Virus record (IMG/VR): IMGVR_UViG_2671181136_000006
DNA from: a virus
Lineage: Duplodnaviria > Heunggongvirae > Uroviricota > Caudoviricetes
DNA length: 64,000 nt
Reading direction: 5' to 3' (one strand)
Part shown: positions 57,791-64,000 of the stretch, piece after piece
Layout of the letters: each line of letters starts with the position of its first letter
Numbering within the stretch: position 1 is the stretch's first letter
The notes under the pieces: model-generated
What the model saw: the letters and a program-made list of their open reading frames with translations, nothing else
Told to the model about the DNA's origin: nothing
Database searches by the model: none
Translations under genes and position numbers: made by a program

Positions 57791-58150
57791 TCAACCTTTC
57801 TTCATTAACTCGCGTTTAATTTCATCGGTACGCATCGTGACATCGGCAGCGGTGATCGCCTCATTCAATTTCACGATGTCCTCGATTTCCTGCGGTGACT
57901 TCTCTGCCAGATGGAAAATGGCTGCTCGAATCACGTCAGAACGAGTGAACTTCTCGAAGCGAGGGATGAACTTCATCATCTCCAGCAGTTCGAAGTATTC
58001 GTCCTCCAGTGACATTGTGCGGCTTTTAATTTTCTCTTTGCCACGAGTCGGGCGTCCCTGTGGTCTGACTGGTTGGCGCAAAGGAGTTGTGTTCTTAGCC
58101 GGTGCATCAGGCTCTTTGCGCTTTGCTAGGTCACCCATTTTCATGGACAT
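57791..58150 (-). CDS. small basic DNA-binding partition protein (ParG/RHH-like), candidate centromere-binding protein
   Basis: 119 aa, basic disordered N-terminus, directly downstream of and overlapping parA stop. Confidence 0.45.
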   Translation of the reverse strand: MSMKMGDLAKRKEPDAPAKNTTPLRQPVRPQGRPTRGKEKIKSRTMSLEDEYFELLEMMKFIPRFEKFTRSDVIRAAIFHLAEKSPQEIEDIVKLNEAITAADVTMRTDEIKRELMKKG

Positions 58151-58818
58151 TATTCTTCTTCCTCCAGACTCAACAGATAATCTACAAATTCTTCAAACTC
58201 GGCTTCCGCCTTTTTGTCGCGCTCGCTACCGGTCATTTCAAAGATAGAACGACCAGACTCTTCCGCATCATCATAGACGTTGCGGTTATATAGATTGACT
58301 GGCGCAGACTCGATTCCAAACGTCTCAACAATCTCTTTAGCCGCCAGAATGCGAGACACTTGTGATGGCAAAGCCGGGCACTGGTTCATGACCGCGCGGA
58401 CCTTCACTTTATCGTTTACATTGCGAACATTGTCGATAATAGGATCGATGTCACGTAAAGATTTCAAATCACGACGCTTAGGACGCAGCGGGATAATGAT
58501 AACGTCAGCCATCAGCATCGCTTGTCGCTGAATTTCGGAGTCGAAGCCACCAGCATCTACCACTACAAACTCAGCTCTACCCTGAAGCGATTTTAGGTGC
58601 TTAATGATGTCATCCTGAACGTATGCAAAAGGAATCAGCTCAAGGTCTTCGTTCTGTCGACGGTCTTCACACCAGCTCGTTGTCGTGCGCTGAATATCTA
58701 TATCGGTAATATAAACCTTCTTCTTCTTTTTGACTTTCAGGCAAACGGCAATTTGCTGGGCAACGGTGGATTTGCCAGGCCCGCCCTTTGTGCCGCCAAC
58801 CACAAAGATCTTGGTCAT
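58150..58818 (-). CDS. parA: ParA/Soj-family partition ATPase (small type Ib)
   Basis: deviant Walker A GGTKGGPGKST, 222 aa. Confidence 0.85.
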   Translation of the reverse strand: MTKIFVVGGTKGGPGKSTVAQQIAVCLKVKKKKKVYITDIDIQRTTTSWCEDRRQNEDLELIPFAYVQDDIIKHLKSLQGRAEFVVVDAGGFDSEIQRQAMLMADVIIIPLRPKRRDLKSLRDIDPIIDNVRNVNDKVKVRAVMNQCPALPSQVSRILAAKEIVETFGIESAPVNLYNRNVYDDAEESGRSIFEMTGSERDKKAEAEFEEFVDYLLSLEEEE

Positions 58819-59136
58819 TGGAGAGTTCCCTTTGCGTATATAATTATCGTCTGAAACAACTTGTTTTCTTATATGTGATATAGCCTAAATGCCTACGGCT
58901 GCGGTGTAAAGGTTAAATGGTAGGTTGTGATTAACAATTGGCAAACATAGCTTGTATTTGTCTGTTGAAAAAAGTAACAATGACCTCTATATTACAAGTA
59001 CGGTGATATGCCGTACACAATTTGATAATGCACACGTAATGGGCTATAGCCTTTTAAAGTAATTTTTGAGTCGAAAACTCAGTTTGAACAGAGGAGATTG
59101 ATGGCCTTCCTACATCACGGCCATCAGGAGGAATAC

Positions 59137-59406
59137 ATGTCAGCACTAAAAAAGCAGCGCATCGATTTGAGATTAACCGATGACGATAAAAGCATCATCG
59201 AGGAAGCTGCCGCAATGTCTAACCAGAGCATTACTCAGTTTATGGTTAGCAGTGCATCTGAACGTGCCGTGAAAGTTATAGAGCAACACCGTAGACTAGT
59301 TCTGAATGAAGAATCCTGGAATCTGGTTATGGACGCTATAAGCAATCCTCCGGCACCGAACGACAAGCTGAAACGAGCTGCTGATCGTCTGAAAAGCATG
59401 GAGTAG
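59137..59406 (+). CDS. ataR: RHH antitoxin of GNAT-toxin TA pair (AtaR/TacA-like, DUF1778)
   Basis: MSALKKQRIDLRLTDDDKSIIEEAA... closely resembles AtaR as recalled; AGGAGG SD 7 nt upstream of ATG 59137. Confidence 0.85.
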   Translation: MSALKKQRIDLRLTDDDKSIIEEAAAMSNQSITQFMVSSASERAVKVIEQHRRLVLNEESWNLVMDAISNPPAPNDKLKRAADRLKSME

Positions 59407-59413
59407 TTTACTC

Positions 59414-59935
59414 GTGGATAATATAAAGATAGAAATTTTCTCTGGAGAGAAAGATTATGATTTGAATGGTTTTGATTGCGGTGAAGAATCACTAAATGCC
59501 TTTTTAACCAACCACTTAAAAAGGCAGCATGAGGGAAAAATTCTTCGCGCTTATGTGCTTTGCACGAAAGAAGGCAGACCAAAAGTGTTAGGGTATTACA
59601 CTTTGTCAGGTAGCTGCTTTGAAAAGGAGTCCTTACCTTCAAGAAGCCAGCAAAAGAAGGTACCTTATCGGAATGTTCCAAGTGTTACTTTGGGTAGGCT
59701 GGCTTTGGACAAGTCCCTTCAAGGTCAAGGATTTGGCTCAATGCTTGTAACACATGCAATGCGCGTTGTGTACAATGCATCTCTTGCTGTAGGCATTCAT
59801 GGACTTTTCGTTGAGGCGTTAAATGACAAAGCCAAGGCGTTTTATAAAAGTTTAGACTTTATCCAGCTGGTTGGTAACAACGAGCGTTCTTTGTTCTATC
59901 CTACAAAATCTATCGAAAAATTGTTCGAAGAATAA
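59414..59935 (+). CDS. ataT: GNAT acetyltransferase toxin (AtaT/TacT-like)
   Basis: FDCGEE..N.FL..H, LGYYTL.GSCFE, SVTLGRLA.D.SLQGQG, GIHGLFVEALN.KA..FYKSL.F motifs near-collinear with AtaT as recalled; GTG start 8 bp after antitoxin stop. Confidence 0.9.
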   Translation: MDNIKIEIFSGEKDYDLNGFDCGEESLNAFLTNHLKRQHEGKILRAYVLCTKEGRPKVLGYYTLSGSCFEKESLPSRSQQKKVPYRNVPSVTLGRLALDKSLQGQGFGSMLVTHAMRVVYNASLAVGIHGLFVEALNDKAKAFYKSLDFIQLVGNNERSLFYPTKSIEKLFEE

Positions 59936-59966
59936 TGTACTCCCCTCAAGTGAGGGGAACTTCGCA

Positions 59967-60182
59967 TCACCAACCGCAAACTCTCTCTCCCATCGTATTG
60001 TGAAAAAGGATTTGGCGTTCGGTTTCTTCGGTCATCACATCATTATTGCTGATATAGATAGGCCCAGCTCCATCGCAGAACAATACGCTGGCGGTTTGTG
60101 GTTTAATGACGCACCCACTTATCATACAACTCACGATGAACGGCAGAAGCATCTTTCTGACGTATTTTATTGCTCGTCTCAT
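59967..60182 (-). CDS. o-spanin-like outer-membrane lipoprotein (Rz1-like)
   Basis: lipobox ...CMISGC, short Pro-containing periplasmic domain; overlaps 3' end of i-spanin ORF in another frame. Confidence 0.5.
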   Translation of the reverse strand: MRRAIKYVRKMLLPFIVSCMISGCVIKPQTASVLFCDGAGPIYISNNDVMTEETERQILFHNTMGERVCGW

Positions 60183-60354
60183 TCACCACTTCCACTGTGC
60201 TTTGAAGTCGTTTTCTGTCTTCCTGTTTTGCCTTCTCTTCCATTGCTCGTCGCGCCGCATTCCCGCCCATCGTGTAAGCGCCGACAAGAACGAAAAGAAC
60301 GGCAGCCAGCGTAATCAAAGCAACTTTTAGCTTTGTCATCAGGCTGCCTAGCAT
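60103..60354 (-). CDS. i-spanin-like protein (Rz-like)
   Basis: N-terminal TM helix followed by charged coiled-coil region; overlapped by o-spanin candidate. Confidence 0.5.
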   Translation of the reverse strand: MLGSLMTKLKVALITLAAVLFVLVGAYTMGGNAARRAMEEKAKQEDRKRLQSTVEVVNETSNKIRQKDASAVHRELYDKWVRH

Positions 60355-60355
60355 A

Positions 60356-60781
60356 TTAGACCATCCCTTTCTGGTGTTTTCTTACCTGCGACCAGGCAAT
60401 GAATCCTGCCACAACAATAGTGGCAATACCGAAGATGATGCGTACTGTATCCCCGCTAGAGATATGACCTTGTGCTTTATCCATAGCAGCGGAAACCTGC
60501 GGCATAACATCGGCCAGCTGCGCCAGACCAATACCTGCTGTAACAGTTGCGCCTGCGGTTTCTTTAGTTACAGGAACAGCCTTCACGGTTTTCACCGGCT
60601 TAACAACGCCAGCTCGACGCAGACCTTCCTCAATAACTTCTACCGCATACCAGGTGTTCAGCGTTTTTAGCGGGCCTCGGCCATTCTCGTGGCGAATGAT
60701 TGCCTCAACCAAAGGTCGAAGGATGTCGTAATCATGCAGATCGATGATCATGTCTGCGGTTACACCAACGGCTTTAGACAC
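60356..60781 (-). CDS. lysis-cassette protein with C-terminal TM segment, possibly N-terminally truncated by transposon insertion
   Basis: GTG start at 60781 sits 9 bp from the transposon IR; frame stays open 14 codons into the IR before a stop. Confidence 0.3.
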   Translation of the reverse strand: MSKAVGVTADMIIDLHDYDILRPLVEAIIRHENGRGPLKTLNTWYAVEVIEEGLRRAGVVKPVKTVKAVPVTKETAGATVTAGIGLAQLADVMPQVSAAMDKAQGHISSGDTVRIIFGIATIVVAGFIAWSQVRKHQKGMV

Positions 60782-60790
60782 CTCATTAAT

Positions 60791-60828
60791 GGGGGAACCG
60801 CAGAATTCGGAAAAAATCGTACGCTAAG
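60791..60828. repeat. Tn1721-type 38-bp terminal inverted repeat
   Basis: GGGGGAACCGCAGAATTCGGAAAAAATCGTACGCTAAG, near-identical to the Tn1721 IR as recalled. Confidence 0.85.
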
Positions 60829-60979
60829 CTAACGGTGTTCTCGTGACAGCTCTTTGACTAGGCTTTCTAAGGCCATTCTGATAGCCCTGACTTCCTGAAA
60901 AGCCATGGCTAAAATTTGTGCGGCTAAAAGGGATAACCGATGGTAAAGTAAGTTATCCCTGTCGAGATACTGAAAAGCG

Positions 60980-62557
60980 TTATCCTCGTTTTTCCCAAAA
61001 CTGTTTTGCCAGTTCGCTCAGAGCGCTAGTTAACTGAGCGACAGATTTCGCACTTTGCAAATTATTCTGCCCGGTCTGTACATTGGTATCAGCAGCATCG
61101 CGTATATTGATAATACTGCGGTTTATGTCTTCACTTACTGCTCCCTGCTGCTCGACCGCAGTCGCTATTTGCGCGTTCATGTCGGTAATTTCGTTAACGC
61201 GTTGGCCAATTCCATCAAGAGCTGTAGCTGCTTCCTCTGCGTGAGCTACACTCGTGTGCGCTTGCCGACTACTTTGCTCCATGACTGTAACAGCGGATTG
61301 CGCTCGCTCTTGTAGAGCGCTGATCATGCTTTGAATATCCGTTGTCGATTGCTGTGTGCGAGCAGCAAGACTGCGAACCTCATCGGCGACAACAGCAAAA
61401 CCACGCCCCTGCTCACCAGCACGCGCGGCCTCAATTGCTGCGTTGAGTGCCAACAAATTCGTTTGCTCGGCGATCCCTCGTATAACGTCAAGAACTTTTG
61501 ATATCTCGTTACTTTGACCTTCAAGCTCATGAATAACCTGAGTGGCTTGCCTAATTTCACCTTCAAGGGCAGTGATTGACTGGCTTGTGTGGGCTACCAG
61601 ACGCTGGCCAGATGCCGTCTCAGTGTCTGCTCTTCCGGCCGCATCTGCAGCATGCTGTGCATTGCTCGCAACCTCTTGAATGCTTGCCACCATTTGGTTT
61701 ACTGCCGTTGCTATTTGATCTGTCTCTGCCTGCTGCTCAACTGTAAGTACATTGCTTGACTCAATATCCTTTAGTAGGCCTCGGGTGTGTTCGCTAAGCC
61801 GATTTGATGCATCACCTATGCGACCTACTATGGCGCCTGTTTCAGCTTGCATCATTCGTAAAGCAAACTCTATTTGGCCAAACTCATCGGTGCGCCCAGT
61901 GTAGAGGGATTGACTTAATGGGTTATTGGAAATATTCCTGGCTCTTTCAACCAGTCTTCCAAGAGGAGAGAGAATAGCCAAAACACTAACAGAGCTTAAG
62001 CTTCCTGACATTAAAGTGGCTAACAATAAGCTGCTTATTGATGTATCAGTAAGCATGCCGGCAGCCATTGCGCTTGATATAATACTACCCCATATGAGCA
62101 AGAGTATTTTCACGGAAAAGCTAGCAGCCAATTTCGGCCTCGCGGCCTTCCCGCTTCTCAATTGAGCATATAATTTTTCCGCAGCCAAAACCTGCTCAGG
62201 TTCAGGCTTGGTCCTTACAGACTGGTATTCAACAATCGAACCATTCTTAGCTATTGGCGTTACATAAGCACTTACCCAATAGTGGTCGCCATTTTTACAG
62301 CGATTTTTTACTAGCCCCATCCATGAGCGGCCAGATTTTAATGTACTCCACATATGCTCAAATGCAGCAGGCGGCATATCTGGGTGTCTTACGATGTTGT
62401 GAGGCTGGCCTAATAGTTCTTCCTCAGTGAAACCACTGATTTTAATGAAGTCAGGATTAACGTACGTGATATGGCTTTGAGGGGAGGTAGTCGAAAGAAT
62501 ATTGGCATCTTTTGGGAGTTCTAAGTTTCGACCCGTCACTGGTAAATTCTGGCGCAT
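60980..62557 (-). CDS. methyl-accepting chemotaxis-like protein with N-terminal PAS domain (Tn1721 orfI-like passenger)
   Basis: Aer-like PAS N-terminus, TM region, highly conserved MCP signalling motif [37 protein letters not shown]. Confidence 0.85.
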
Positions 62558-62866
62558 AAGAACCTCAAGGGTTGGCTGTTTTATTTTATTGTTTTCGGCA
62601 TTAAGCCCAATTTCTTGAGCGTTACGATAAAGCTAGCATGGAAACGATAGGTGCAAGCAAGTTAAGGGTTGCATCGCGCATGTCAATCTAGGCTATACCC
62701 TAACTTGATGTCAGGCAGGGCCGCGCCGCTTCGTCAGAATAGAGTCTGCTTTCCCATTTTTTGACACATGCCCGCGAAGGTTATAGATTTCAGCCTGACA
62801 GAAATGGGCTTTGAGGCACAACGGAACAGAAAGTGCACTTAAGCCGCCTTCAACCAAGGAGACATC
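62558..62866. promoter_or_regulatory. res site / divergent promoter region
   Basis: between divergent orfI and tnpR; contains TGTCAGGC / GCCTGACAG inverted subsite-like repeats. Confidence 0.5.
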
Positions 62867-63427
62867 GTGCAGGGGCACCGCATCGGCTACGTCCGGGTCA
62901 GCAGCTTTGACCAGAACCCGGAACGCCAGCTGGAACAAACCCAGGTGAGCAAGGTGTTCACCGACAAGGCATCGGGCAAGGACACCCAGCGCCCCCAGCT
63001 CGAAGCGCTGCTGAGCTTCGTCCGCGAAGGCGATACAGTGGTGGTGCACAGCATGGATCGGCTGGCCCGCAACCTCGATGACCTGCGTCGCTTGGTACAG
63101 AAGCTGACTCAGCGCGGCGTGCGCATCGAGTTCCTGAAGGAGGGCCTGGTGTTCACTGGCGAGGACTCGCCGATGGCCAACCTGATGCTGTCGGTGATGG
63201 GGGCCTTCGCTGAGTTCGAGCGCGCCCTGATCCGCGAGCGGCAGCGTGAGGGCATCGCCTTGGCCAAGCAGCGTGGCGCGTACCGGGGCCGCAAGAAAGC
63301 CCTGTCCGATGAGCAGGCTGCTACCCTGCGGCAGCGAGCGACGGCCGGCGAGCCCAAGGCGCAGCTTGCCCGCGAGTTCAACATCAGCCGGGAAACCCTC
63401 TACCAGTACCTCCGCACGGACGACTGA
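62867..63427 (+). CDS. tnpR: serine resolvase TnpR
   Basis: IGYVRVSSFDQNPERQ with catalytic Ser, C-terminal HTH; near-identical to Tn21/Tn1721-subgroup resolvases as recalled; GTG start. Confidence 0.95.
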   Translation: MQGHRIGYVRVSSFDQNPERQLEQTQVSKVFTDKASGKDTQRPQLEALLSFVREGDTVVVHSMDRLARNLDDLRRLVQKLTQRGVRIEFLKEGLVFTGEDSPMANLMLSVMGAFAEFERALIRERQREGIALAKQRGAYRGRKKALSDEQAATLRQRATAGEPKAQLAREFNISRETLYQYLRTDD

Positions 63428-63430
63428 CAC

Positions 63431-64000
63431 ATGCCGCGTCGCTTGATCCTCTCGGCCACGGAGCGGGACACCCTGCTTGCGCTGCCGGAAAGCCAGGATG
63501 ACCTGATCCGCTACTACACCTTCAACGACTCCGACCTGTCGCTGATCCGCCAGCGACGCGGCGACGCCAACCGCCTCGGCTTCGCCGTGCAGCTCTGCCT
63601 GCTGCGCTACCCCGGTTACGCGCTGGGAACCGACAGCGAGCTGCCCGAGCCGGTCATCCTGTGGGTGGCGAAGCAAGTCCAGGCCGAGCCGGCGAGCTGG
63701 GCAAAGTACGGCGAGCGCGACGTGACCCGTCGCGAGCATGCCCAGGAACTGCGCACCTACCTGCAACTGGCCCCGTTCGGCCTGTCCGACTTCCGCGCCC
63801 TGGTGCGCGAGCTAACCGAGCTGGCCCAGCAGACCGACAAAGGCTTGCTGCTGGCCGGTCAGGCCCTGGAGAGCCTACGGCAGAAACGACGCATCCTGCC
63901 GGCGCTGAGCGTGATTGACCGGGCCTGCTCGGAAGCCATTGCGCGAGCCAATCGGCGGGGCTACCGCGCCCTGGTCGAACCACTCACGGACTCGCATCGG
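63431..64000 (+). CDS. tnpA: Tn3-family transposase TnpA, N-terminal part (truncated by window end)
   Basis: [44 protein letters not shown]... matches N-terminus of Tn21-subgroup TnpA as recalled; ATG 4 bp after tnpR stop. Confidence 0.9.

What the first reader, a model, noticed from the sequence alone, without database searches (positions are those of the whole stretch)
58998..59935. AtaR/AtaT-type GNAT toxin-antitoxin pair between partition and lysis loci, with palindrome upstream
The pair is near-collinear with the tRNA-acetylating AtaT/TacT toxin and its RHH antitoxin as recalled. A GTACGG-N7-CCGTAC inverted repeat at 58998-59016 in the promoter region is a candidate operator. This provides post-segregational killing for the plasmid state; expression of a translation-blocking toxin during the lytic programme would be an open question.
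Basis: established knowledge. Interest (0 to 1): 0.4.

Follow-up and report, generated by a model that had tools for sequence, protein, structure and literature searches.

The report
Known AtaRT/KacAT toxin-antitoxin on phage-plasmid
This is an intact member of the well-studied AtaR-AtaT/KacA-KacT toxin-antitoxin family, with its textbook operator, carried as cargo on an SSU5-like E. coli phage-plasmid; it is real but ordinary and already annotated in close relatives.

Summary
GTACGG-N7-CCGTAC lies at 58998-59016. It is followed by an 89-aa DUF1778/RHH antitoxin (59137-59406) and a 173-aa GNAT toxin (59414-59935).

Family membership is confirmed by sequence. The toxin is 70% identical to E. 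coli O157 AtaT, full length and without gaps, and scores almost as well against KacT. The antitoxin is 76% identical to AtaR and 80% to KacA. The tested catalytic, acetyl-CoA and DNA-reading residues are conserved.

The palindrome has the same half-sites and spacing as the operator crystallised with KacAT. The O157 ataRT locus has it too, as do 123 of 124 homologous loci. It sits just after a conserved promoter, across the expected transcription start.

The window comes from an SSU5-like E. coli phage-plasmid. The pair is a self-contained 1.06-kb cassette in a variable slot between parA and the spanin genes. The 97%-identical locus of phage-plasmid Cyrano (pLF82) is already published as a KacT-type toxin-antitoxin transcribed in the lysogen.

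Post-segregational killing is plausible but untested.

Two side observations: a conserved three-hairpin 120-nt leader lies ahead of the antitoxin gene, and a Tn3-family transposon cuts the adjacent endolysin gene.

Low interest; already known.

The parts
58926..59984 (.). Cargo cassette holding the toxin-antitoxin pair with its own promoter, operator, leader and terminator. This is the segment that differs from phage SSU5.
   Evidence: Homology to SSU5 stops at 58925 and resumes at 59985. Phage-plasmid Cyrano is collinear at 97.7% across the whole segment. In this slot SSU5, PhiR41_1 and pJN2-26 carry other genes of unknown family.
58965..58993 (+). Sigma-70-type promoter: TTGAAA, 17-nt spacer, TATATT.
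   Evidence: It matches 10 of 12 consensus positions. TTGA of the -35 and TA...T of the -10 are invariant in eight loci whose mean column identity is 63%. It is a prediction; no transcription start has been mapped.
58998..59016 (.). Operator palindrome GTACGG-N7-CCGTAC, lying across the expected transcription start.
   Evidence: Searches show the palindrome. It has the same half-sites and spacing as the KacAT crystal operator AAATGTACGGTTATTAACCGTACATGA (PMC6698736) and as O157 ataRT. It is exact in 123 of 124 homologous loci, with a freely varying spacer.
59017..59136 (+). 120-nt 5' leader with three hairpins: H1 at 59041-59052, H2 at 59066-59082, and H3 at 59099-59126, which abuts the ribosome-binding site AGGAGG at 59126-59131.
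   Evidence: Searches show the hairpins. There is no Rfam match. A covariance model finds the leader only upstream of antitoxin genes. Pair counts exceed the shuffled and slid controls. Its function is unknown.
59137..59406 (+). Antitoxin gene: 89 aa, with an N-terminal ribbon-helix-helix DNA-binding domain and a C-terminal toxin-binding region (DUF1778/TacA family).
   Evidence: Pfam TacA1 scores 5.7e-26. KacA scores 6.6e-42 at 80% identity and AtaR 1.3e-40 at 76%. NCBI's annotation of the identical plasmid uses the same start. The upstream in-frame ATG at 59101 falls out of frame in the second phage-plasmid allele.
59414..59935 (+). GNAT toxin gene: 173 aa, GTG start, with GGAG at 59400-59403 inside the end of the antitoxin gene.
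   Evidence: AtaT scores 8e-79 over residues 1-172 and KacT 3.7e-74. Identity to AtaT is 70% with no gaps. G108, Y144, Y85, R95 and L27 are conserved. dN/dS between phage-plasmid alleles is 0.06-0.15.
59939..59960 (.). GC-rich hairpin between the convergent toxin gene and the Rz1 spanin gene; probably a terminator.
   Evidence: The scan found 9 pairs with a 4-nt loop. Only the minus-strand reading is followed by a T-rich tail.
58150..58818 (-). Context: ParA-type partition ATPase gene, divergent from the toxin-antitoxin promoter.
   Evidence: NCBIfam ParA_partition scores 1.9e-33, and Pfam gives MipZ/AAA_31/CbiA. It is annotated ParA in Cyrano and SSU5.
59968..60791 (-). Context: spanin genes (Rz1 at 59968-60087 by homology to Cyrano; Rz at 60103-60354) and the C-terminal remnant of the endolysin gene (60356 to about 60791).
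   Evidence: PHROGs gives Rz-like spanin at 9e-25 and endolysin at 1.6e-34. The Cyrano annotation agrees. Homology to Cyrano ends at 60791.
60792..64000 (.). Context: Tn3-family (TnAs1/Tn1721-like) transposon end inserted in the endolysin gene. It begins with the terminal repeat GGGGGAACCGCAGAATTCGGAAAAAATCGTACGCTAAG and carries a PAS methyl-accepting chemotaxis gene, a resolvase gene and part of the transposase gene.
   Evidence: It is 99.8-99.9% identical to annotated TnAs1-family segments on thousands of plasmids. Searches show the sequence and domains. The missing half of the endolysin gene is not in the window.

Best explanation
This is an intact type II toxin-antitoxin operon of the AtaRT/KacAT clade of GNAT-RHH systems. 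It is carried as a self-contained cargo cassette on an SSU5-like phage-plasmid of E. coli.

Shown here by sequence:
- The antitoxin keeps the DNA-reading residues R8, D10 and R12 of KacA.
- The toxin keeps the acetyl-CoA-site glycine (G108) and the catalytic tyrosine (Y144) of AtaT.
- The promoter is followed by the family's operator, GTACGG-N7-CCGTAC, across the expected transcription start.
- Both genes are under strong purifying selection.

Inferred from the characterised homologues:
- A toxin2-antitoxin4 hexamer binds the two operator arms and represses transcription. By analogy with KacAT, excess toxin would relieve repression.
- Free toxin acetylates the amino group of charged tRNAs and stops translation. 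For this clade the reported targets are tRNAs charged with glycine or hydrophobic amino acids.
- The GTG start of the toxin gene keeps toxin below antitoxin.

The most likely biological role is to stabilise the plasmid form of the prophage: cells that lose it keep the toxin after the antitoxin has decayed. I put the molecular identity and mechanism at about 0.9 and the stabilisation role at about 0.45. The confidence below is for the statement as a whole, weighted towards identity and mechanism.
For: Family identity:
- Pfam TacA1/DUF1778 scores 5.7e-26, and GNAT domains are found in the toxin.
- Solved structures: AtaT scores 8e-79 and KacT 3.7e-74 over the full length. KacA scores 6.6e-42 and AtaR 1.3e-40.
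- Identities are 70%, 76% and 80% with no gaps.
- Of 18 AtaT residues discussed in PMC7595197, most of them tested by mutation, 13 are identical here. These include G108, Y144, Y85, R95 and L27.

Operator and promoter:
- The half-sites and spacing are identical to the KacAT crystal operator (PMC6698736) and to O157 ataRT.
- The motif is exact in 123 of 124 homologous loci from genomes, viral contigs and metagenomes, while the spacer varies.
- Shuffles of the window gave no exact copy.
- The promoter hexamers are invariant across divergent loci.

Function and context:
- dN/dS between phage-plasmid alleles is 0.04-0.15.
- The 97%-identical Cyrano genes are transcribed 35-fold and 60-fold above local background in the lysogen (PMC9928086).
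- The pair sits directly beside the partition operon. A 72%-identical homologue on another viral contig sits beside ParA/ParG and ParM partition genes.
- AtaT and KacT have relaxed tRNA specificity (PMC9177977).
Against: - No experiment exists for this particular pair. Toxicity, neutralisation, DNA binding and plasmid stabilisation are all inferred from homologues about 70-80% identical.
- Three residues discussed for AtaT differ: R40E and K79Q among the tRNA-contacting positions, and A26S in the aminoacyl pocket. Target choice may therefore differ.
- KacA residues needed for neutralisation are only partly kept. M65 and I68 are identical; Q70 is N here and R77 is K, as in AtaR.
- Only a minority of plasmids sharing the parA-side flank carry the cassette. 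About 175 of 1081 matching plasmid records cover it in full. SSU5 itself lacks it. It is therefore not needed for maintenance of this element type.
- In another clade, KacT4, a native GUG start made the toxin non-toxic on overexpression (PMC9431474). Weak toxicity is therefore possible here.
Confidence: 0.8

Rival explanations
1. Same molecules, different role. The pair is kept because it protects the lysogen, and so the phage-plasmid, against other phages or competing plasmids. A second infection would disturb antitoxin supply and free the toxin, giving abortive infection or exclusion.
For: The pair sits in a variable cargo slot beside the lysis genes. The same region of related elements carries a Cor exclusion gene. 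It is transcribed in the lysogen like other accessory prophage genes (PMC9928086). Only a subset of SSU5-like elements carry it, as expected for accessory cargo.
Against: Neither protein matches any model in PADLOC-DB. No paper read reports phage defence by a GNAT-RHH pair. The immediate neighbour is the partition operon.
Confidence: 0.2
2. Same molecules, different role. The pair benefits the host by producing non-growing, antibiotic-tolerant cells, as reported for KacT and TacT.
For: KacT halts growth and induces antibiotic tolerance, and TacT promotes non-growing Salmonella in macrophages (as cited in PMC9431474, and PMC11205521). The Cyrano host LF82 is a macrophage-surviving strain.
Against: There are no data for this pair. 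The persistence roles of type II systems are disputed (PMC8138530 title and abstract). About 30% of complete E. coli genomes already carry a chromosomal ataRT.
Confidence: 0.12
3. The pair is a selfish or decaying passenger with no present activity, for example a toxin too weakly translated or mutated to be toxic.
For: The toxin gene starts with GTG, and a native GUG start abolished toxicity of KacT4 on overexpression (PMC9431474). R40E and K79Q fall at tRNA-contacting positions.
Against: Both reading frames are full length and align without gaps to the solved homologues. dN/dS is 0.04-0.15. The catalytic and cofactor residues, the operator and the promoter are all conserved.
Confidence: 0.05

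Closest known systems
AtaR-AtaT of E. coli O157:H7 (chromosomal; structures 6AJM, 6GTS and others)
   Same: - Same gene order and protein sizes (88-89 and about 173-175 aa).
- Toxin 70% and antitoxin 76% identical, with no gaps.
- Same operator half-sites and spacing just after the promoter.
- G108 and Y144 are conserved.
   Different: - This copy is on a phage-plasmid; ataRT lies between livJ and panM on the chromosome.
- The toxin starts with GTG rather than ATG.
- The leader is 120 nt with three hairpins, against 26 nt.
- R40E, K79Q and A26S differ in the toxin.
KacA-KacT of Klebsiella pneumoniae (structure 5ZGN with operator DNA)
   Same: - Antitoxin 80% identical, with identical R8, D10 and R12 DNA-contact residues.
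- Operator GTACGG-N7-CCGTAC across the transcription start.
- The toxin aligns over its full length.
   Different: - The spacer sequence differs (TGATATG against TTATTAA).
- Q70N and R77K fall in the toxin-binding tail.
- Derepression by excess toxin (conditional cooperativity) is shown for KacAT only.
CYRAN_27/CYRAN_26 of phage-plasmid Cyrano (pLF82, E. coli LF82)
   Same: - Same locus in the same slot of the same element type, 97% identical in DNA.
- Annotated as a KacT acetyltransferase-type toxin with a putative antitoxin.
- Reported as transcribed in the lysogen.
   Different: - Cyrano's annotators start the antitoxin at the upstream ATG (window 59101), whereas NCBI's pipeline uses 59137.
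- Cyrano has an intact endolysin gene and makes virions.
TacA-TacT of Salmonella
   Same: Same superfamily architecture: a DUF1778 antitoxin followed by a GNAT toxin that acetylates charged tRNA.
   Different: It is much more distant. TacT-type structures score about 1e-11 to 1e-20, against 1e-79 for AtaT. It belongs to a different clade that acts almost only on glycyl-tRNA (PMC9177977).
phd-doc of phage-plasmid P1 (functional analogue)
   Same: A type II toxin-antitoxin pair carried by a phage that lives as a plasmid (PMC7969092). Its classic role as a plasmid-addiction module is from my own knowledge, not from the passages read.
   Different: The proteins and the toxin chemistry are unrelated. 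The addiction role is demonstrated for phd-doc but not for this pair.

Membership tests
AtaRT/KacAT clade of GNAT-RHH type II toxin-antitoxin systems | Two-gene operon with the antitoxin first: a small DUF1778/RHH antitoxin immediately upstream of a GNAT toxin of about 170-175 aa. | tested here: met
   The genes are 59137-59406 and 59414-59935 on the same strand, 7 nt apart. Pfam gives TacA1 at 5.7e-26 and GNAT domains.
AtaRT/KacAT clade of GNAT-RHH type II toxin-antitoxin systems | Full-length sequence similarity of the toxin to AtaT and KacT. | tested here: met
   AtaT scores 8e-79 over residues 1-172 and KacT 3.7e-74. Identity to AtaT is 70% with 0 gaps.
AtaRT/KacAT clade of GNAT-RHH type II toxin-antitoxin systems | Acetyl-CoA-site glycine (AtaT G108) and catalytic tyrosine (AtaT Y144, KacT Y145). 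| tested here: met
   QGQGFG with G108, and FYKSL with Y144, align position for position. Their roles come from PMC7595197.
AtaRT/KacAT clade of GNAT-RHH type II toxin-antitoxin systems | tRNA-contacting and aminoacyl-pocket residues tested in AtaT (F30, H34, R37, R40, R71, S76-K82, Y85, R95, L27, L136). | tested here: inconclusive
   Most are identical. R71K and K77R are conservative changes. R40E, K79Q and A26S differ. This is compatible with activity, but target preference cannot be read from it.
AtaRT/KacAT clade of GNAT-RHH type II toxin-antitoxin systems | Antitoxin N-terminal ribbon-helix-helix with the base-contacting residues R8, D10 and R12. | tested here: met
   Residues 5-22 (KKQRIDLRLTDDDKSIIE) are identical to KacA. 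The roles of the residues come from PMC6698736.
AtaRT/KacAT clade of GNAT-RHH type II toxin-antitoxin systems | Antitoxin C-terminal toxin-binding region (KacA M65, I68, Q70, R77). | tested here: inconclusive
   M65 and I68 are identical. Q70 is N here, and R77 is K, as in AtaR.
AtaRT/KacAT clade of GNAT-RHH type II toxin-antitoxin systems | Palindromic operator GTACGG-N7-CCGTAC at the promoter, across the transcription start. | tested here: met
   The motif is at 58998-59016, 4 nt after the predicted -10. It is identical in form to the KacAT and AtaRT operators and exact in 123 of 124 homologous loci. The transcription start itself is predicted, not mapped.
AtaRT/KacAT clade of GNAT-RHH type II toxin-antitoxin systems | The toxin arrests growth by acetylating charged tRNAs, the antitoxin neutralises it, and the complex represses its own promoter. 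| not testable with these tools
   This needs expression, binding and mass-spectrometry experiments. Only indirect support is available: purifying selection and transcription of the Cyrano orthologues.
TacAT clade (Salmonella TacT, glycine-specific GNAT toxins) | Closest similarity to TacT-type toxins. | tested here: not met
   TacT-type chains score 1e-11 to 1e-20, against 1e-79 for AtaT. The clades are as defined in PMC9177977.
Catalogued anti-phage defence systems (PADLOC-DB 2.0) | A match to any defence-system protein model. | tested here: not met
   Neither protein matched at E <= 0.01.

The most novel reading that the evidence does not exclude
The 120-nt leader between the operator and the antitoxin start (59017-59136) may be a functional cis-acting RNA element. 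Its last hairpin abuts the ribosome-binding site, and the loop of that hairpin carries CUUCCU, which is complementary to that site. The leader could therefore set antitoxin translation or mRNA stability and add a post-transcriptional layer to a system thought to be controlled only at its operator.

A second, weaker possibility concerns cross-talk. The phage-plasmid and chromosomal ataRT copies share identical DNA-reading residues and the same operator, so they may cross-repress each other in the roughly 70 complete E. coli genomes that carry two loci.
Probability: 0.3. Interest if true: 0.4.

Novelty: already known. Interest (0 to 1): 0.15.

Why it matters
This adds little. It confirms that a published and well-understood toxin-antitoxin family, operator included, travels as a ready-made cassette on a common class of E. 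coli phage-plasmids. About 150 of 5,426 complete E. coli genomes carry the full cassette.

The practical value is mainly annotation:
- These genes are usually labelled only 'GNAT family N-acetyltransferase' and 'DUF1778 protein'. They could be named AtaT/KacT-like and AtaR/KacA-like.
- The antitoxin start and the operator can now be placed precisely.

If the conserved leader proves functional, it would add a new regulatory layer to this family.

Tried and rejected
- **Longer antitoxin from the upstream in-frame ATG at 59101 (TTG at 59098), as annotated in Cyrano.** Rejected. The second phage-plasmid allele has a 1-nt insertion between the two ATGs, so the extension is out of frame there. More distant homologues have no in-frame start there (sequences). 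KacA and AtaR begin at the equivalent of 59137, and NCBI's pipeline uses 59137.
- **Known RNA family for the leader.** None. The best Rfam matches have E-values of 0.35 to 7.9 and are clearly chance.
- **Leader stability.** The minimum free energy of the whole leader is no better than shuffles (z = -0.36). Support comes only from conservation and compensatory changes.
- **Defence-system label.** No PADLOC match.
- **Identity of the alternative cargo in the same slot** (SSU5_031/032, the PhiR41_1 genes and the pJN2-26 gene). No Pfam or PADLOC match.
- **Identity of the 119-aa gene after parA.** No Pfam match, no similarity to the ParG of locus L050, and no solved relative.
- **A plasmid record with the same transposon-endolysin junction.** None in PLSDB.
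- **Not run.** Structure prediction and the large protein-database searches, because 70-80% identity to solved structures already settles the fold and the family.

Full report
**Observation**

GTACGG-TGATATG-CCGTAC occupies 58998-59016. It is the only exact GTACGG-N7-CCGTAC in the window, and none appeared in 100 dinucleotide-preserving shuffles. With two mismatches allowed, about 0.9 matches are expected by chance, so exactness and context carry the argument.

Two co-oriented reading frames follow on the + strand:
- An antitoxin-sized gene ends at 59406. Its start is best placed at the ATG at 59137, giving 89 aa, with AGGAGG five bases upstream.
- A 173-aa gene runs 59414-59935. It starts with GTG, with GGAG at 59400-59403.

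**What the proteins are**

The first protein matches Pfam TacA1 (DUF1778) at 5.7e-26. The second matches GNAT acetyltransferase domains.

Against solved structures:
- The toxin aligns over residues 1-172 to E. coli O157 AtaT (8e-79) and to Klebsiella KacT (3.7e-74). TacT-type toxins score only 1e-11 to 1e-20.
- The antitoxin matches KacA (6.6e-42) and AtaR (1.3e-40).
- Pairwise identities are 70% to AtaT, 76% to AtaR and 80% to KacA, all without gaps.

I checked residues discussed or tested by mutation in AtaT (PMC7595197):
- G108 (acetyl-CoA site), Y144 (catalysis), Y85, R95, L27, F30, H34, R37, S76, S78, K81, K82 and L136 are identical.
- R71K and K77R are conservative changes.
- R40E, K79Q and A26S differ.

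In the antitoxin, residues 5-22 are identical to KacA. This stretch includes R8, D10 and R12, which read the operator bases in the KacAT-DNA crystal (PMC6698736). In the toxin-binding tail, M65 and I68 are kept, Q70 is N, and R77 is K as in AtaR.

AtaT and KacT form the basal 'clade A' of GNAT toxins. This clade acetylates tRNAs charged with glycine or hydrophobic amino acids (PMC9177977). By similarity this toxin belongs there, not with the glycine-specific TacT clade.

**The palindrome is the family operator**

The 27-bp duplex crystallised with the KacA4-KacT2 hexamer is AAATGTACGGTTATTAACCGTACATGA. That is GTACGG-N7-CCGTAC, and the authors describe it as spanning the kacAT transcription start (PMC6698736). 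The canonical O157 ataRT locus has GTACGG-TGACATA-CCGTAC 26 nt before the ataR start.

I collected homologous loci from species genomes, viral contigs and metagenomes, with toxins 63-99% identical. An antitoxin of this type was recognised in 124 of them, and all 124 have the motif within 260 nt upstream. It is exact in 123, and the 7-nt spacer varies freely.

In the window a promoter-like site, TTGAAA-17-TATATT, lies at 58965-58993. This places the expected transcription start inside the left arm of the palindrome. TTGA of the -35 and TA...T of the -10 are invariant across eight loci that otherwise share 63% column identity. The operator assignment is therefore well supported. The transcription start and the binding itself remain predictions.

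**Are the genes functional?**

Between the two main phage-plasmid alleles, dN/dS is 0.04-0.06 for both genes. It is 0.15 for the toxin in a third allele. This argues against decay.

The toxin's GTG start contrasts with the ATG of O157 ataT. In another clade, KacT4, the native GUG start kept the toxin non-toxic on overexpression (PMC9431474). A low toxin:antitoxin translation ratio is therefore the likely consequence here.

**Context**

The window is part of an SSU5-like phage-plasmid of E. coli.
- The locus is 100% identical to several plasmids of about 109-113 kb. It is 97% identical to phage-plasmid Cyrano (pLF82 of strain LF82), where the genes are annotated 'KacT Acetyltransferase-type toxin' and 'putative antitoxin'.
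- Relative to SSU5, homology stops at 58925 and resumes at 59985. The pair, with its promoter, operator, leader and a terminator-like hairpin (59939-59960), is therefore a 1.06-kb cassette.
- The same slot between parA and the Rz1 spanin gene holds unrelated genes of unknown family in SSU5, PhiR41_1 and pJN2-26.
- Among complete E. coli genomes, 152 of 5,426 carry the full cassette, and 1,626 chromosomal places carry ataRT-type loci.
- The Cyrano paper lists the two genes among accessory genes transcribed in the lysogen, at 35-fold and 60-fold above local background. It also shows that Cyrano is a plasmid of about 5.5 copies that makes virions (PMC9928086).
- A survey of phage-plasmids notes toxin-antitoxin systems in the accessory genome of the SSU5 group (PMC7969092).

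The finding is therefore already in the public record in all but name.

**Mechanism and role**

By homology, an antitoxin4-toxin2 complex should bind the two arms and block the promoter. Free toxin should acetylate charged tRNAs and stop translation.

The role is less certain. Position beside the partition operon suggests plasmid stabilisation. So does a 72%-identical homologue that sits next to ParA/ParG and ParM/StbB-type (Plasmid_stab_B) partition genes on another viral contig. Against necessity, SSU5 and many relatives lack the cassette.

A defence or exclusion role, or a tolerance role, cannot be excluded. The proteins match no PADLOC model.

In this particular element a Tn3-family (TnAs1/Tn1721-like) transposon end begins at about 60792. 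It cuts the endolysin gene, leaving 141 codons against 230 in Cyrano. The missing half is not elsewhere in the window. No PLSDB record has the same junction. Lysis is therefore probably impaired here, which would make plasmid-type maintenance functions more relevant for this copy.

**A side observation worth recording: the leader**

The distance from operator to antitoxin start varies from 20 to 153 nt across the family. The window's 120-nt leader (59017-59136) folds into three hairpins:
- H1 at 59041-59052.
- H2 at 59066-59082.
- H3 at 59099-59126, ending at the ribosome-binding site.

These recur at equivalent positions, with different stem sequences, in Enterobacter, Lelliottia, Huaxiibacter and metagenomic homologues.

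A covariance model built on the leader found 29 matches in 59 sources, each at the expected position upstream of the antitoxin start, and only one in the window. On the resulting alignment:
- 77.5% of cells pair, against 71.9% in shuffles (0 of 500 reached the observed value).
- 52 cells show changes on both sides, against 23.9 in shuffles.
- Slid controls pair at 29-51%.

There are caveats. The alignment was fitted to the model, the sequences are related, and the overall folding energy is unremarkable. There is no Rfam match.

RNAalifold also proposed an alternative pairing of the H3 loop (CUUCCU) with the ribosome-binding site. Other long-leader classes likewise have a hairpin immediately before the ribosome-binding site. 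Whether any of this regulates antitoxin translation is unknown.

**Verdict**

The thing is ordinary: a known toxin-antitoxin family, with its known operator, in a known kind of element, and already labelled in a close relative.

Noticed in passing
window 59017-59136: A conserved 120-nt 5' leader with three hairpins lies between the operator and the antitoxin start. The last hairpin abuts the ribosome-binding site, and its loop (CUUCCU) is complementary to that site. The canonical ataRT has only 26 nt here. There are compensatory stem changes across genera and no Rfam family. Covariation is above the controls, with caveats.
   Followed up: partly
window 60356-64000 (junction at about 60791/60792): A Tn3-family TnAs1/Tn1721-like transposon is inserted in the phage-plasmid's endolysin gene. 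It carries a terminal inverted repeat, a PAS methyl-accepting chemotaxis gene, a resolvase gene and part of the transposase gene. Only the C-terminal 141 codons of the endolysin remain in the window, so the element is probably lysis-defective. No PLSDB record shares this junction.
   Followed up: partly
window 58926-59984, compared with L002 5075-6508, L136 and L137: The slot between parA and the Rz1 spanin gene is a variable cargo site in SSU5-like phage-plasmids. It holds the toxin-antitoxin pair here and in Cyrano, two unrelated minus-strand genes in SSU5 and in PhiR41_1, and one plus-strand gene in pJN2-26. None of the alternatives has a Pfam match, and the SSU5 pair has no PADLOC match either.
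   Followed up: partly
window 57791-58150 (minus strand): The 119-aa gene overlapping the end of parA is annotated 'RelE/ParE putative toxin' in Cyrano. It has no Pfam match, no similarity to a ParG from a related locus, and no solved relative. Its position suggests it is ParA's DNA-binding partner, but that is a guess.
   Followed up: partly
L028 2724-3519 compared with window 59137-59932: One phage-plasmid allele has an antitoxin gene identical in DNA to the window's, while its toxin gene differs at 26 positions (dS 0.16). This suggests recombination within the cassette.
   Followed up: no
L049 2557-2607 and L050 2556-2606: Two viral-contig homologues carry a second, degenerate copy of the operator (GTACAnnnnnnnGCCGTAC, 2 mismatches) 13 nt after the exact one. 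This hints at a tandem-operator variant.
   Followed up: no
E. coli complete genomes: About 71 genomes carry two loci of this family. About 90 would be expected if plasmid and chromosomal copies were independent. The copies share an identical operator and identical DNA-reading residues, so cross-repression is possible. The count is rough and not corrected for relatedness of strains.
   Followed up: no
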